A DNA stretch of 41,145 nt from a virus (IMGVR_UViG_2531839440_000003:1-41145), one strand, 5' to 3'. Positions 3,779-12,282 are shown, counted from the first letter of the stretch. The notes: a model not told the origin generated them from the sequence alone. Numbers and translations: made by a program.

Positions 3779-3858
3779 GTTGTTTTAACCTCATTACAGA
3801 TTTAAGGGTGAACAAATCCCTGCCATTGCTGACATATAAAAATGAAACCGGATATTAA

Positions 3859-4062
3859 TTACGGTGCTGTTTTAAGTCCTGCCGGGATTTCGTTATTATC
3901 CATGTGAATAACTTTATCGACCGGATAGCAGTTACCGGGAATTTTTTGTTCTGCTGCGGCAGCCATGCATTCTTTCATTGAACCGTAAATGTCAATAACC
4001 ATGTCAACAGGCTCGCCAGTATTAAGAAAAACAGTCAGAGTGAGGGCAATAGCAGTATTCAT
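3859..4062 (-). CDS. Small protein with hydrophobic N-terminus (positional equivalent of Qin ydfD)
   Basis: 67 aa from ATG at 4062 (AAGGA RBS 8 nt upstream); start overlaps upstream stop as ATGA; hydrophobic N-terminal segment MNTAIALTLTVFL. Confidence 0.45.
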   Translation of the reverse strand: MNTAIALTLTVFLNTGEPVDMVIDIYGSMKECMAAAAEQKIPGNCYPVDKVIHMDNNEIPAGLKTAP

Positions 4063-4247
4063 TGCCAGTATCCTTTTTGCATCGGGCGTAAACGTGCCAG
4101 CATTGAAAGAATGCATATTTTATTTAATAGCTCCCGTTCGTGTTTTCTCTTATTAATGGCATCTTCAGTAAATACAGGGTTACTGATTCTGACACCAATT
4201 TCAAAACAACCTTCAGACGTATTGACGTTTGGTAATAACGTTTCCAT
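4059..4247 (-). CDS. dicB: Cell-division inhibitor DicB-like protein (62 aa)
   Basis: Internal ATG of ORF 4059..4343 with GAGGA RBS 7 nt upstream; product METLLPNVNTSEGCFEIGV...NKICILSMLARL matches my recollection of E. coli DicB in sequence and exact length; lies downstream of the dicF-like hairpin as in Qin. Confidence 0.6.
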   Translation of the reverse strand: METLLPNVNTSEGCFEIGVRISNPVFTEDAINKRKHERELLNKICILSMLARLRPMQKGYWQ

Positions 4248-4430
4248 TATCGCGTCCTCAACAATGAATTTTGTGATGCGGTGCCTGGTGCCTCCAGGTG
4301 ACGTTAACCAGTTAATAATTAACGCCGGATACAGAGAACCCACCCATAAGAACCAATACGGAAGTCAACTGGCCTTTTTAACTGTTCCGCGTGCGCTGAG
4401 CCGCATTCACCGCATCACAAAATTCACTTT

Positions 4431-4490
4431 AAAAGGGGCGGGTATCATGGGAAAAACAAAACGGATACCCGCCAAAAGGTAATCAACATG
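4431..4490 (-). ncRNA. dicF: DicF-like sRNA 3' domain with intrinsic terminator (boundaries approximate)
   Basis: Minus-strand 10-bp perfect stem GGCGGGUAUC/GAUACCCGCC (4437..4446 with 4464..4473), 17-nt loop, followed by CCUUUU; preceded by UUUGGCGGG, resembling the DicF 3' hairpin as I recall it; 5' region differs from K-12 DicF. Directly upstream of dicB-like ORF. Confidence 0.4.
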
Positions 4491-4813
4491 GGTTGTTGCA
4501 GCGGGGTTGTCACTCAGGCGTATGGTCAACCTGACAACCCGGTGGACATTTGCGAGGAACGGAGAACCCCCGCCATACTTACCGCCGCGCCATTTCGCGG
4601 AGTGCCACAACCGGAAGCGCACGGTCGACGAAAATTTAACGACAGGCTATCTATGAACCAGCAACCTCGCCGTGCGCTTTCGCGTTATGCTCTGACTTTT
4701 CAGAGAAATATCCTTTCAGTAAACTGTCAGTGCCGGATGCTCACCCGTGTCCGGCGCACACACTCCACCTCACCTGTGGAGAACTCCTTAATTACCAACC
4801 CTCAGGAGGGTGA

Positions 4814-5047
4814 ATGTTAAAATCAACGCTTATTGCTAAATGCCTTTATCAAAATCGCATGGTAAGCAGCATTTCAATAAGCGAATCTGCAGTTAAAAGT
4901 ATTTTCGAAGAGTACTTTCCCGGGCATGATTTTAATAAATGGAATACCAAATTACCGCCAGCAGTTTCAACGCGTATTCTGAAAGCAACTGAAAGAGCAA
5001 GTACAATTCGCGTTAACTATTTCATTAAAGATTTGTGGGATCTTTGA
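4814..5047 (+). CDS. Hypothetical protein, low-GC, opposite orientation to the early-left operon
   Basis: 77-aa ORF with GGAGGG RBS 5-6 nt upstream; AT-rich codon usage unlike flanking phage genes; 3' end overlaps the convergent gene by 23 bp. Confidence 0.4.
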   Translation: MLKSTLIAKCLYQNRMVSSISISESAVKSIFEEYFPGHDFNKWNTKLPPAVSTRILKATERASTIRVNYFIKDLWDL

Positions 5048-5432
5048 TATCCACAGAGCCTAAAGTATGTGCATATGGATGTGCTATTGTGCGCCCCTGT
5101 AAATTTGCATCGTTTTCTAAATCTTTTGATTTCAACAGAACATCAGCAAGACTCTGAATCATGCAGAGATAATCAAAAACAGTTGCCGTTTCTGTTCTGA
5201 TTGCTGAAATAACATGACCATTCAGGCAAACAGAAATTACCCGTTCATCAATATCGTTTTCCTGTTTTTGATTATCAGAACCATATAGCCCTGAAAAAGC
5301 ATTGCGCACATTACGAACCATATTATCGATGGTTTCTTTTTTGGTGTGTGCCGGGTCAATTTTCACCAGACTATCACCGAGTGTCGTTGCAGCAATTATC
5401 TGGATTTCTTTTGGTAAATCTTTAAATTCCAT
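5025..5432 (-). CDS. Hypothetical protein, low-GC moron
   Basis: 135-aa ORF, no transmembrane segment evident, AT-rich; no Qin counterpart at this position between the ydfC-like gene and dicF-like RNA. Confidence 0.5.
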   Translation of the reverse strand: MEFKDLPKEIQIIAATTLGDSLVKIDPAHTKKETIDNMVRNVRNAFSGLYGSDNQKQENDIDERVISVCLNGHVISAIRTETATVFDYLCMIQSLADVLLKSKDLENDANLQGRTIAHPYAHTLGSVDIKDPTNL

Positions 5433-6177: not shown

Positions 6178-6585
6178 TTACTGATGTTTGTTACGTTTGC
6201 GAGCTTCTAGTAGCTCGGTGAATAGGCGATTAAAATTCTCAACGCGGGCACGGAGTTCGCTGATTTGTGCTTGCTGCTCTGATTTTGGAAGTGCGCGATA
6301 CAATCGCAACATCTCCAACTCATCTTCCGATAAGTCTAAGGCGCTGTTGAGTGCAACTGGTGGATCTGGTGTTTTATCCTCGTCACCAAACAGTATCCAA
6401 GTTGGTGAACATTGCAATACCTCAGCCAGGCGATGCAAATTTTGCCCACGCGGGGCTGTATGGTCGCTTTCCCATAGTGAAATTGATGAGCCAGATACGC
6501 CAGCGGCTTTGCTTAAATCGTTTTGACTTAAACCAACCTGTTTGCGTCTTTCTCTAATTCGTTGACCTAAAGTTTTCTCGTTCAT
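6178..6585 (-). CDS. dicA: DicA-like HTH (XRE-family) prophage repressor
   Basis: 135-aa ORF with N-terminal HTH (LSQNDLSKAAGVSGSSISLWE) and the segment LQCSPTWILFGDEDK, which I recall from E. coli DicA; divergent from the Cro-like gene. Confidence 0.75.
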   Translation of the reverse strand: MNEKTLGQRIRERRKQVGLSQNDLSKAAGVSGSSISLWESDHTAPRGQNLHRLAEVLQCSPTWILFGDEDKTPDPPVALNSALDLSEDELEMLRLYRALPKSEQQAQISELRARVENFNRLFTELLEARKRNKHQ

Positions 6586-11867: not shown

Positions 11868-12126
11868 ATACAGCGAACGCCATTGGTTTAGTTGGATATT
11901 TACTGTGCCGGACAAAAACGGTTTGCGGGGAAATCTTAGTTAAGTAGAATAACTGCGGGTGCTTGAGGCTATCTGTCTCAGGCATGAACACCAAAAGGCA
12001 GATAGAGAAAAGCCCCAGTTAACATTACGCGTCCTGCAAGACGCTTAACATTAATCTGAGGCCCAATCTATGTCTCACAAATGTAGGTTAGCCTCTTACG
12101 TGCCGAAAGGCAAGGAGAAGCAGGCT

Positions 12127-12282
12127 ATGAAGCAGCAAAAGGCGATGTTAATCGCCCTGATCGTCATCTGTTTAACCGTCATAGTGACGGCACTGGTAAC
12201 GAGGAAAGACCTCTGCGAGGTACGAATCCGAACCGGCCAGATGGAGGTTGCTGTTTTCGTAGACTACGAATCTAGAGAGTAA
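12127..12282 (+). CDS. hok: Hok/Gef-family type I toxin
   Basis: 51 aa MKQQKAMLIALIVICLTVIVTALVTRKDLCEVRIRTGQMEVAVFVDYESRE, closely resembling Hok (..[34 protein letters not shown].AYES); AAGGAG RBS; in-frame upstream extension from 12070. Confidence 0.8.
   Translation: MKQQKAMLIALIVICLTVIVTALVTRKDLCEVRIRTGQMEVAVFVDYESRE

What the first reader, a model, noticed from the sequence alone, without database searches (positions are those of the whole stretch)
4059..4490. DicF-like sRNA and DicB-like inhibitor with an 18-bp perfect inverted repeat bracketing the dicB leader
On the minus strand a terminator hairpin (10-bp stem GGCGGGUAUC, then CCUUUU) is preceded by UUUGGCGGG, resembling the 3' domain of DicF, but the 5' region differs from K-12 DicF, so the targets may differ. 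Immediately 3' of the terminator, GAAUUUUGUGAUGCGGUG (4408..4425) is the exact reverse complement of a segment 124 nt further on (4266..4283), which ends 18 nt before the dicB-like start codon. In a read-through transcript this would form an 18-bp duplex, a plausible RNase III site or translational control of the division inhibitor.
Basis: partly seen in the sequence, partly recalled or inferred. Interest (0 to 1): 0.5.

Follow-up and report, generated by a model that had tools for sequence, protein, structure and literature searches.

The report
Variant dicF–dicB prophage division-inhibitor locus
This is the well-known prophage dicBF cell-division-inhibitor operon, where the repeat forms the long RNA helix that RNase III is reported to cut in E. 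coli K-12, and the only unusual part is a minority, diverged version of the DicF small RNA.

Summary
Arms 4265-4283 and 4408-4426 form a 19-nt perfect inverted repeat, the longest in the window. A 10-bp hairpin plus U-tract lies at 4431-4473, and a 62-aa ORF lies at 4059-4247, all on the minus strand.

The ORF is DicB (Pfam 126 bits, NCBIfam 130 bits). The segment is about 86% identical to the K-12 Qin ydfC-dicF-dicB-ydfD region and sits downstream of a DicA repressor.

The repeat is not special to this locus. It is present in K-12 and nearly invariant in 43 distinct dicB leaders. In K-12 coordinates it spans DicF +64 to +81. The published RNase III-dependent 72-nt DicF 3' end therefore falls in mid-arm.

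I also found that the dicF-dicB spacer is a diverged relative of the prophage RNA STnc100, and the repeat is that fold's closing helix. It is 4-11 bp in canonical copies and extends to about 20 bp only behind DicF-type terminators.

The sRNA is a positional homolog of DicF but gets no Rfam DicF hit. It lacks most of the K-12 5' seed, has a different loop, and shows no above-chance ftsZ complementarity. It occurs in about 3.5% of complete E. coli genomes.

Overall: a known system with a variant sRNA allele, of low to moderate interest.

The parts
4059..4247 (-). dicB, the 62-aa cell-division inhibitor gene
   Evidence: Pfam PF05358 at 126 bits over 1-62/62 and NCBIfam NF049927 at 130.3 bits against a cutoff of 100. 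It is 85-87% identical to the Escherichia/Shigella DicB copies found by tblastn. PGAP annotates dicB at the same place in the 99.8%-identical locus L001.
4256..4259 (-). dicB Shine-Dalgarno sequence GAGG, 8 nt upstream of the AUG
   Evidence: Read from the sequence. In the consensus fold it pairs with the terminator U-tract at the base of the long helix. Predicted unpaired probability is 0.01 in read-through RNA and 0.52 after the predicted cleavage. These are predictions only.
4265..4283 (-). 3' arm of the long-range helix (CACCGCAUCACAAAAUUCA)
   Evidence: 19-nt perfect complement of 4408-4426. It is nearly invariant in 43 distinct leaders, and the common variants keep pairing through G.U.
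4408..4426 (-). 5' arm of the long-range helix (UGAAUUUUGUGAUGCGGUG). The predicted RNase III cut is near 4417/4416.
   Evidence: The homologous K-12 arm spans DicF +64 to +81, and the published 72-nt RNase III-dependent 3' end is +72 (PMC5069750, PMC9438474). The cut position in the window is inferred by homology, to within a few nt.
4264..4427 (-). Structured dicB leader, an STnc100-related RNA domain. It has closing helix P1 plus internal hairpins, for example 4300-4326 and CCUGG/CCAGG at 4284-4298.
   Evidence: Rfam STnc100 scores 33.5 bits against a gathering score of 47 (E 3e-5 in 1.3 kb, 1e-3 in the whole window). Model R1, built only from dicB leaders, hits the canonical 933W STnc100 at 46.2 bits with E about 1e-12. 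P1 and the CCNGG hairpin covary across 74 distinct elements.
4431..4473 (-). Hairpin and U-tract at the DicF position: an intrinsic terminator and the body of the variant sRNA
   Evidence: 10-bp perfect stem with a 17-nt loop, followed by CCUUUU. It folds at -17.2 kcal/mol. It is aligned with the K-12 DicF hairpin. The U-tract has only 4 U, against 5 in K-12.
4474..4486 (-). Short 5' tail of the variant sRNA (5' end not determined)
   Evidence: Relative to K-12 there is a 9-nt deletion plus substitutions in the 5' seed. If RNase E cuts at the aligned position (about 4478), the sRNA would be about 45-48 nt with almost no single-stranded 5' seed. This is an inference.
4612..4682 (-). Upstream hairpin (arms 4670-4682 and 4612-4624), the probable RNase III site that makes the 5' end of the roughly 190-nt precursor
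   Evidence: 13-nt arms, 92% complementary (I7). In K-12 coordinates the 190-nt 5' end falls in the 3' arm of this hairpin. Its RNase III dependence is from PMC10448788. The region is highly conserved against K-12.
3859..4062 (-). ydfD-like gene (DUF1482), overlapping the dicB stop codon (ATGA)
   Evidence: Pfam PF07358 at 71.8 bits. Annotated the same way in L001.
6178..6585 (-). DicA-type repressor that controls the operon promoter
   Evidence: NCBIfam NF007257 'transcriptional repressor DicA' at 238 bits against a cutoff of 101.

Best explanation
The finding lies in the early-left operon of a lambdoid prophage and is homologous to the E. coli K-12 Qin dicBF operon.

Gene order: DicA repressor, ydfA/B/C, one extra ORF, a conserved structured non-coding stretch, the DicF-position sRNA, a structured leader, dicB, a ydfD-like gene, an exonuclease, then xis and int.

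Proposed mechanism:
1. When DicA repression is lifted, the polycistronic RNA is made.
2. RNase III cuts the upstream hairpin (4612-4682) and RNase E trims further, defining the sRNA 5' end.
3. The hairpin and U-tract at 4431-4473 terminate part of the transcripts. This releases a roughly 45-50-nt sRNA.
4. Transcripts that read through fold the 164-nt dicB leader. Its closing helix is the 19-bp perfect repeat, about 21-27 bp when wobble pairs are counted.
5. RNase III cuts this helix near 4417/4416 and, on the other arm, near 4274. This gives the longer sRNA form and a dicB mRNA with a leader of roughly 27 nt.
6. The base of the helix pairs the terminator tail (CCUU/UUUU) with the dicB Shine-Dalgarno GAGG. 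Cleavage is therefore predicted to open the ribosome-binding site.

What rests on what:
- Shown here: homology, the helix and its conservation, and family-level covariation.
- Taken from K-12 literature: the RNase III and RNase E processing.
- Inferred: the cut positions in this allele and any effect on dicB translation.

The sRNA is a minority allele of DicF in which both characterised seeds are replaced, namely the 5' end and the loop/3' region. Its targets are unknown.
For: - Homology: about 86% identity to K-12 over 94% of a 521-nt query. The locus is found in 4715 of 5426 complete E. coli genomes. Annotated neighbours agree and the pairwise alignment confirms it.
- Proteins: DicB, DicA and DUF1482 HMM hits are all above their cutoffs.
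- The helix: a 19-nt perfect repeat, the longest in the window, beyond every one of 100 shuffles. It is present in K-12 with two G.U pairs.
- Conservation: the arms are nearly invariant in 43 distinct leaders while the interior is swapped between unrelated modules. The frequent arm variants (in 21, 13 and 5 loci) all keep pairing via G.U.
- RNase III link: a 72-nt RNase III-dependent DicF form is published, and +72 is mid-arm in K-12. The 190-nt RNase III-dependent 5' end maps to the upstream hairpin.
- RNA-level selection on the closing helix: 74 distinct STnc100-type elements show 2-6 standard pair types at each of offsets 1-4. Of the cells at offsets 1-5, 335 of 370 are paired, against 257 +/- 7.6 after partner shuffling, with 0 of 1000 shuffles reaching the observed value.
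- Length of the helix: contiguous helices of 15-21 bp, or 10+9 bp with one bulge, occur only in leaders that follow a DicF-type terminator. All others are 11 bp or shorter.
- SD sequestration: predicted unpaired probability is 0.01 in read-through RNA and 0.52 after cleavage. For K-12 the values are 0.13 and 0.75.
Against: - No expression or cleavage data exist for this allele.
- I could not read the primary paper (Faubladier 1990). The mapping of +72 onto the arm rests on lengths quoted in two later papers and on taking UUUCUGG as +1.
- Within dicB leaders there is no double compensatory change (0 of 51 pairs). Conservation there cannot separate structure from sequence constraint. The covariation comes from the wider family and covers only the inner 8-10 bp of the helix.
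- The outer 10-12 bp, which are specific to these leaders, do not vary informatively.
- The SD pairing is made of weak U.G/U-A pairs and is a thermodynamic prediction.
- The U-tract has only 4 U. The hairpin may be a poor terminator and a poor Hfq binder.
- The sRNA loop differs among closely related alleles by indels. This argues against a strongly constrained loop seed.
Confidence: 0.72

Rival explanations
1. The hairpin at 4431-4473 is only an intra-operon terminator or attenuator. It has lost sRNA function and is a decayed DicF allele, so only dicB and its leader matter.
For: - No Rfam DicF hit even at E<=10.
- A 9-nt deletion removes most of the 5' seed used for xylR and pykA.
- Complementarity to the ftsZ translation-initiation region is no better than for shuffled sequences (P about 0.36, against 0.06 for K-12).
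- Loop indels occur between the B and B' alleles.
- The U-tract has only 4 U.
Against: - The processing context is fully conserved: the upstream precursor region, the RNase III hairpin and the downstream helix.
- Every allele at this position keeps a stable hairpin through helix-preserving changes, at -10.7 to -21 kcal/mol.
- The motif GGCGG-NAUC-N-GUUU is shared across more than 10 alleles.
- The allele persists in 191 complete genomes.
Confidence: 0.25
2. The inverted repeat is a DNA-level element. It could be the terminal inverted repeats of a miniature transposable element, or a protein-binding palindrome, rather than an RNA helix.
For: - Perfect 19-bp arms flank a 124-bp interior.
- The interior is replaced by unrelated modules in different loci.
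- STnc100-type elements occur at several places, and in tandem, in phage genomes.
Against: - No target-site duplication flanks the arms: AAAG on one side and TTGT on the other.
- No empty site was seen among the dicB loci.
- Pairing continues beyond the perfect arms with G.U pairs, which only make sense in RNA.
- Compensatory changes keep the helix across the family.
- An RNase III-dependent RNA end maps inside the arm in K-12.
Confidence: 0.04
3. RNase III cleavage of the helix destabilises dicB mRNA rather than activating it. This would be retroregulation or autoregulation in the style of lambda sib/int or rnc, limiting production of the toxic DicB.
For: - The same helix and cleavage evidence applies as for the main explanation.
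- DicB is highly toxic when expressed (PMC5069750).
- A 5'-monophosphate end would favour RNase E attack. This last point is from general knowledge of RNA decay, not tested here.
Against: - The fold predictions point to opening of the SD after cleavage.
- In K-12 the upstream ydfA transcripts were not detected without RNase III, so in that case processing appeared stabilising (PMC10448788).
- There is no direct evidence either way for dicB.
Confidence: 0.2

Closest known systems
E. coli K-12 Qin prophage dicBF operon (ydfABC-dicF-dicB-ydfDE), controlled by DicA/DicC
   Same: - Same gene order and same DicA repressor.
- About 86% DNA identity across the dicF-dicB-ydfD region.
- Same upstream RNase III hairpin region.
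- Same long-range helix between the DicF terminator and dicB.
- Same SD and start context.
   Different: - The sRNA allele has a 9-nt deletion and substitutions in the 5' seed, a different loop and 3' stem half, and 4 U instead of 5. It gets no Rfam DicF hit.
- The helix is perfect, with C-G and G-C where K-12 has U.G and G.U.
- The leader interior carries a 14-nt insertion.
- A 135-aa ORF is inserted between ydfC and the precursor region.
- The prophage looks complete rather than cryptic.
STnc100 (Rfam RF02076) and the related PasD prophage sRNAs
   Same: - Shared multi-hairpin fold closed by helix P1.
- Shared sequence blocks GGUGAAU and CACCNGGAGGCACCNGGCACC.
- Covariation in P1 and in the CCNGG hairpin.
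- Covariance-model hits in both directions.
   Different: - The score is below the Rfam gathering threshold (33.5 against 47 bits).
- Canonical STnc100 sits in the late region, for example 75 nt after stxB2 in 933W. It has a 4-11-bp P1 and ends in its own terminator.
- The dicB leader has no terminator and runs into a coding gene.
- Its P1 is extended to about 20 bp, directly behind a DicF-type terminator.
Lambda pL-operon RNase III sites (N-leader hairpin; sib retroregulation of int)
   Same: An RNase III-sensitive structure in the early-left transcript of a lambdoid phage. It lies next to the ribosome-binding site of a downstream gene and forms only in read-through or antiterminated RNA. This comparison is from my own knowledge of lambda and was not tested here.
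   Different: There is no sequence relationship. Here the helix is long-range (124-nt interior) and doubles as the 3'-end maker of an sRNA. The effect on the downstream gene is untested.
Lambda Kil and other prophage division inhibitors
   Same: A small FtsZ-ring inhibitor protein encoded in the early-left operon (PMC3961180 is listed; the rest is from my own knowledge).
   Different: DicB is an unrelated protein and acts through MinC and ZipA.

Membership tests
DicF sRNA (Rfam RF00039) | Covariance-model score at or above the gathering score of 48 bits | tested here: not met
   No DicF match in the window at gathering score, at E<=10 on 3800-5100, or at E<=0.1 on the whole window. Positive control: the K-12-type locus L002 scores 76.7 bits.
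DicF sRNA (Rfam RF00039) | Location between the ydfC-side precursor region and dicB, in a DicA-controlled operon | tested here: met
   The flanks align with K-12 on both sides of the sRNA. DicA, YdfA/B/C, DicB and YdfD-like genes are in order.
DicF sRNA (Rfam RF00039) | 3' Rho-independent terminator hairpin followed by a U-tract | tested here: met
   10-bp GC-rich stem followed by CCUUUU. The generic terminator scan found only a shorter sub-hairpin because the 17-nt loop exceeds its limit. Only 4 U are present.
DicF sRNA (Rfam RF00039) | Conserved 5' seed used for xylR and pykA | tested here: not met
   The K-12 sequence UUUCUGGUGACGUUU is replaced or deleted. The role of the seed is from PMC5069750.
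DicF sRNA (Rfam RF00039) | Loop/3' region complementary to the ftsZ ribosome-binding site | tested here: inconclusive
   Duplex energy of the loop with ftsZ -35 to +20 is -13.7 kcal/mol, against a shuffle mean of -12.9 (P = 0.36). The K-12 loop gives -22.8 against -17.0 (P = 0.06). This is a crude test without accessibility terms.
DicF sRNA (Rfam RF00039) | [quoted passage not shown] | not testable with these tools
   Needs Northern blots, end mapping and Hfq co-immunoprecipitation.
DicB protein (Pfam PF05358, NCBIfam NF049927) | Full-length HMM match above the curated cutoffs | tested here: met
   126 bits against cutoff 27, and 130.3 bits against cutoff 100, both covering 1-62 of 62.
DicB protein (Pfam PF05358, NCBIfam NF049927) | MinC-dependent inhibition of cell division | not testable with these tools
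   Needs induction of the ORF and microscopy in wild-type and minC backgrounds.
STnc100 (Rfam RF02076) | Covariance-model score at or above the gathering score of 47 bits | tested here: not met
   33.5 bits for the window and 34.4 bits for K-12. The canonical 933W copy scores 207.7 bits.
STnc100 (Rfam RF02076) | Shared fold with covarying closing helix and internal hairpins (homology, as distinct from curated membership) | tested here: met
   Model R1, built from dicB leaders only, hits 933W STnc100 at 46.2 bits with E about 1e-12 to 1e-11. Four consecutive compensatory pairs are seen in P1. CCNGG/CCNGG is always complementary: 65 G/C and 60 U/A of 125. The P1 shuffle control gives 0 of 1000.
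STnc100 (Rfam RF02076) | Stand-alone sRNA ending in its own terminator | tested here: not met
   In 933W a GC hairpin plus U-run follows the core. In the window the 3' arm is followed after 17 nt by the dicB start, with no terminator between them.
RNase III processing site | About two turns (roughly 20 bp) of near-perfect double-stranded RNA | tested here: met
   19 perfect bp. 21 contiguous pairs in the MFE fold and 27 in the consensus.
RNase III processing site | RNase III-dependent RNA ends within the helix | not testable with these tools
   For K-12 the published 72-nt form ends at +72, inside the arm at +64 to +81. For this allele it is inferred by homology only.

The most novel reading that the evidence does not exclude
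The DicF position may be an exchangeable seed cassette held in a fixed processing scaffold. On one side is an RNase III hairpin. On the other is an STnc100-derived leader whose closing helix has been lengthened into an RNase III site. At least ten alleles with different 5' tails and loops share the scaffold.

Under this reading the window's allele has lost the ftsZ and xylR/pykA seeds and regulates other host genes. RNase III cleavage of the extended helix would also gate translation of the downstream toxic gene, which is dicB here and other small ORFs in related phages.
Probability: 0.3. Interest if true: 0.55.

Novelty: new variant of a known kind. Interest (0 to 1): 0.3.

Why it matters
- The locus is textbook. 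It adds little beyond confirming that the dicBF architecture, including both RNase III structures, is kept in an apparently intact lambdoid prophage.
- DicF is not one sequence. Many alleles sit in one conserved processing frame, and Rfam-based annotation misses a minority allele present in about 3.5% of complete E. coli genomes. Counts of 'DicF copies' and target predictions in pathogenic strains may therefore be incomplete.
- The dicB leader belongs to the STnc100/PasD RNA superfamily. This gives that poorly understood family a concrete, testable role as a structured, RNase III-processed leader.
- It also offers a simple system for asking how a helix extension converts a closing stem into a processing site.

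Tried and rejected
- Rfam DicF on the window, at gathering score and at permissive E-values: no hit. I therefore did not file the sRNA as a DicF family member.
- RNAduplex of whole sRNAs against ftsZ: uninformative, because full-length duplexing ignores intramolecular structure. I repeated it with loops and tails only. Even K-12 DicF is only borderline in that test, so it cannot exclude ftsZ targeting.
- Covariation within dicB leaders alone: no double compensatory changes, because the sequences are too similar. I moved to the wider family instead.
- Classifying P1 length by number of RNAduplex pairs: too permissive, since scattered pairs inflated the 'long' class. I relied on contiguous helix length and on duplex energies (about -32 to -35 against -15 to -20 kcal/mol in the examples).
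- Alignment A4 from the model search contains reverse-strand hits, because the long palindrome matches on both strands. I did not use it for pair counting.
- Transposon or MITE reading of the repeat: rejected, with no target-site duplication, RNA-only G.U extension and family covariation.
- Primary papers could not be read: Faubladier 1990, Faubladier & Bouché 1994 and Melson & Kendall 2019 are not held. From memory only, the 1994 paper reported dicF-related sequences in other prophages, so allelic diversity may be partly described there.
- The genome-contig scan with DicB gave only 7 loci, so most diversity came from IMG/VR.

Full report
**1. What is in the sequence**

All features are on the minus strand.
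- A hairpin GGCGGGUAUC / GAUACCCGCC (4473-4464 / 4446-4437, 17-nt loop) is followed by CCUUUU.
- It is followed after 4 nt by UGAAUUUUGUGAUGCGGUG (4426-4408).
- The exact complement of that sequence lies at 4283-4265, 124 nt further on. This arm ends 17 nt before an ATG at 4247, which opens a 62-codon ORF ending at 4059.
- The repeat finder gives 19 nt at 100% for these arms and 10 nt at 100% for the hairpin stem.
- This is the longest perfect inverted repeat with a gap of 300 or less in the whole 41-kb window. In 100 block shuffles the longest arm averaged 11.5 nt and never exceeded 15.
- The 271-nt RNA folds at -101.6 kcal/mol (z = -5.7), with the repeat as a 21-bp closing helix.

**2. Identity of the locus**

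- The ORF is DicB: PF05358 at 126 bits and NF049927 at 130.3 bits against a cutoff of 100, both full length.
- The next ORF (3859-4062) is a DUF1482/YdfD-like protein that overlaps the dicB stop codon.
- A DicA repressor lies upstream at 6178-6585 (238 bits), with YdfA/B/C-like ORFs between them.
- Megablast of 4040-4560 finds the segment in 4715 of 5426 complete E. coli genomes, usually at 80-90% identity.
- In a K-12-type chromosome the match is the Qin dicA-ydfABC-dicB-ydfD region.
- A 99.8%-identical prophage is annotated the same way.
- The window as a whole looks like a complete lambdoid prophage, with integrase and exonuclease at the left end and replication, tRNA, lysis, head and tail genes to the right.

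**3. The small RNA**

The pairwise alignment with K-12 is nearly identical on both sides of dicF. At dicF itself only UUUGGCGG-UAUC-N-GUUUU and the CCGCCC-U-tract are shared.

Differences from K-12:
- A 9-nt deletion plus substitutions in the 5' tail.
- A different loop and a co-varied 3' half of the stem.
- Rfam's DicF model scores 76.7 bits on the K-12-type locus, but finds nothing in the window at gathering score, at E<=10 on 1.3 kb, or at E<=0.1 on the whole window.

In K-12 the 5' end of DicF pairs with xylR and pykA, and the 3' region pairs with the ftsZ ribosome-binding site (PMC5069750). Both regions differ here.

A crude duplex test shows no above-chance complementarity of the variant loop or tail to the ftsZ initiation region (P = 0.36 and 0.98). 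The K-12 loop is borderline in the same test (P = 0.06).

Diversity at this position:
- Among 89 related loci, the DicF position carries the K-12 type in the majority, the window type ('B'), and at least four further types.
- These look mosaic. Two kinds of 5' tail are combined with several hairpins.
- A second sample added more alleles.
- All six representative alleles folded form a hairpin followed by a U-run, at -10.7 to -21 kcal/mol.
- The window type and its close variants occur in 191 of 5426 complete genomes. None is annotated.

My conclusion is that this is a positional, probably ancestral, homolog of DicF. It is not a member of the curated family, and its targets are unknown. It may even be mainly a terminator.

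**4. The inverted repeat**

- K-12 has the same repeat with two G.U pairs where the window has C-G and G-C.
- In 43 distinct dicB leaders the arms are almost invariant, while the interior is exchanged between unrelated modules.
- The frequent arm variants all keep pairing through G.U. Pair-breaking variants are singletons or doubletons. There are no double compensatory changes at this depth.
- The consensus fold extends the helix to 27 pairs. The extension runs from the terminator U-tract, which pairs with the dicB Shine-Dalgarno GAGG.

**5. Link to published processing**

- Two papers, both citing Faubladier et al. 1990, state that DicF has a 53-nt form ending at the terminator. They also describe a 72-nt form whose 3' end is made by RNase III on the full-length dicBF RNA (PMC5069750; PMC9438474).
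- In the K-12-type locus the 5' arm spans DicF +64 to +81. Position +72 is therefore the ninth nucleotide of the 18-nt arm.
- By homology the cut in the window would fall near 4417/4416, with the staggered cut in the other arm near 4274.
- The other published RNase III product is the roughly 190-nt precursor (PMC10448788). Its 5' end maps to the 3' arm of a second conserved hairpin, at window 4612-4624 / 4670-4682.
- I found no discussion of the downstream helix itself in the accessible papers. I could not read the 1990 paper.

**6. A relationship I did not expect**

- Rfam STnc100 matches the dicF-dicB spacer below threshold in both the window (33.5 bits, E 3e-5 locally) and K-12 (34.4 bits). 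The repeat aligns to the model's closing helix.
- A canonical STnc100 lies 75 nt after stxB2 in phage 933W and scores 207.7 bits.
- A covariance model built only from 37 dicB leaders (A3, R1) finds that 933W copy at 46.2 bits with E about 1e-12.
- In that match the closing helix shows four consecutive compensatory pairs (auGc/gCau becomes GCAU/AUGC). The hairpin CCUGG/CCAGG becomes CCGGG/CCCGG.
- A pattern scan of IMG/VR (GGTGAAT...CACCNGGAGGCACCNGGCAC) gave 125 elements. The two N positions are always complementary, 65 G/C and 60 U/A.
- In 74 distinct elements, the four pairs just outside GGUG/CACC each show 2-6 standard pair types.
- Of the cells at offsets 1-5, 335 of 370 are paired, against 257 +/- 7.6 after partner shuffling, with 0 of 1000 shuffles reaching the observed value.

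The inner part of the repeat is therefore a genuine RNA helix (P1) of an STnc100-type fold.

Its length separates two groups:
- Canonical copies have 4-11 contiguous pairs and their own terminator.
- Every leader that follows a DicF-type terminator has 15-21 contiguous pairs, or 10+9 with one bulge (59 elements). Of these, 44 precede dicB and 15 precede other small ORFs.

The extension is what makes the helix long enough for RNase III. STnc100 has recently been linked to the PasD sRNAs (bioRxiv 10.64898/2026.05.13.724894). That paper does not mention dicF or dicB.

**7. Mechanism and its status**

Shown here: the homology, the helix, its conservation, and family-level covariation.

Taken from K-12 literature: DicA control, RNase III and RNase E processing, and partial termination at dicF with read-through into dicB.

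Inferred:
- The cut sites in this allele.
- That the helix hides the dicB SD until it is cut.

On the second point, partition-function folding gives SD unpaired probabilities of 0.01 for read-through RNA and 0.52 after the predicted cut. For K-12 the values are 0.13 and 0.75. The pairs involved are weak and the start codon sits in a small AU-rich hairpin in both forms. A destabilising role of the cut is equally possible in principle.

**8. Verdict**

- This is a known system, the dicBF operon, with its known RNase III-processed architecture.
- What is new is modest. One point is a diverged DicF-position allele that curated models miss. The other is the recognition that the dicB leader is an STnc100-family domain with an extended closing helix.
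- Interest is about 0.3. Novelty: a new variant of a known kind.

Noticed in passing
window 11957-12132 (+): A full-length sok antitoxin RNA of a hok/sok-type toxin-antitoxin system (Rfam RF01794, 120 bits) lies inside the prophage.
   Followed up: no
window 16844-17090 (+): Three tandem tRNA genes, arranged like the ileZ-argN-argO cluster that precedes stx in phage 933W. No canonical STnc100 follows them in this window, and I did not check for stx genes.
   Followed up: partly
window 5025-5432 (-) and 4814-5047 (+): A 135-aa ORF with no Pfam or NCBIfam hit is inserted between ydfC and the DicF precursor region, relative to K-12. A 77-aa ORF with no hit lies on the opposite strand. In the near-identical strain AST205 the first is annotated as a pseudogene.
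   Followed up: partly
window 3965-3980 / 4101-4116: A second inverted repeat (16 nt, 94%; 13 nt perfect), 120 nt apart. One arm lies in the 3' part of dicB and the other in the ydfD-like gene.
   Followed up: no
window 5168-5276: A 15-nt perfect inverted repeat inside the 135-aa ORF, the second longest in the window.
   Followed up: no
L095 5785-5936, L103, L118, L127, L136, L161; L140 5746-5901, L184: The same module (DicF-type terminator plus long-helix STnc100-like leader) precedes genes other than dicB in some phage contigs. One such ORF begins MIAHHFGTDEIPRQC and another begins MLNVAIENQNGWNY. These contigs also carry further DicF-position alleles.
   Followed up: partly
L096 2324-3362; L107, L119, L141, L152: Some phage contigs carry two to four STnc100-type elements in tandem within about 1 kb.
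   Followed up: no
L038, L075, L028: Two dicB loci keep the 3' arm but lack the 5' arm and any DicF (L038, L075). In a third (L028) homology breaks exactly at the outer edge of the 5' arm. This suggests recombination joints at or inside the leader.
   Followed up: partly
phage records: 58 deposited phage genomes carry the dicF-dicB region, and phage Tritos annotates DicF. This contrasts with the 2016 statement that phage databases had no DicB or DicF hits. A record named 'Actinobacillus phage vB_Apl-pPE4' holds a 93.5%-identical copy of the variant allele, which is an odd host label.
   Followed up: no
L004: A contig labelled as a Veillonella parvula MAG encodes an E. coli-type dicF-dicB locus. 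This is probably binning contamination.
   Followed up: no
window 4264-4427, both strands: The custom covariance model also scores the reverse strand at 39 bits, because the long palindrome dominates the score. This is a caveat for any strand call based on this element alone.
   Followed up: yes
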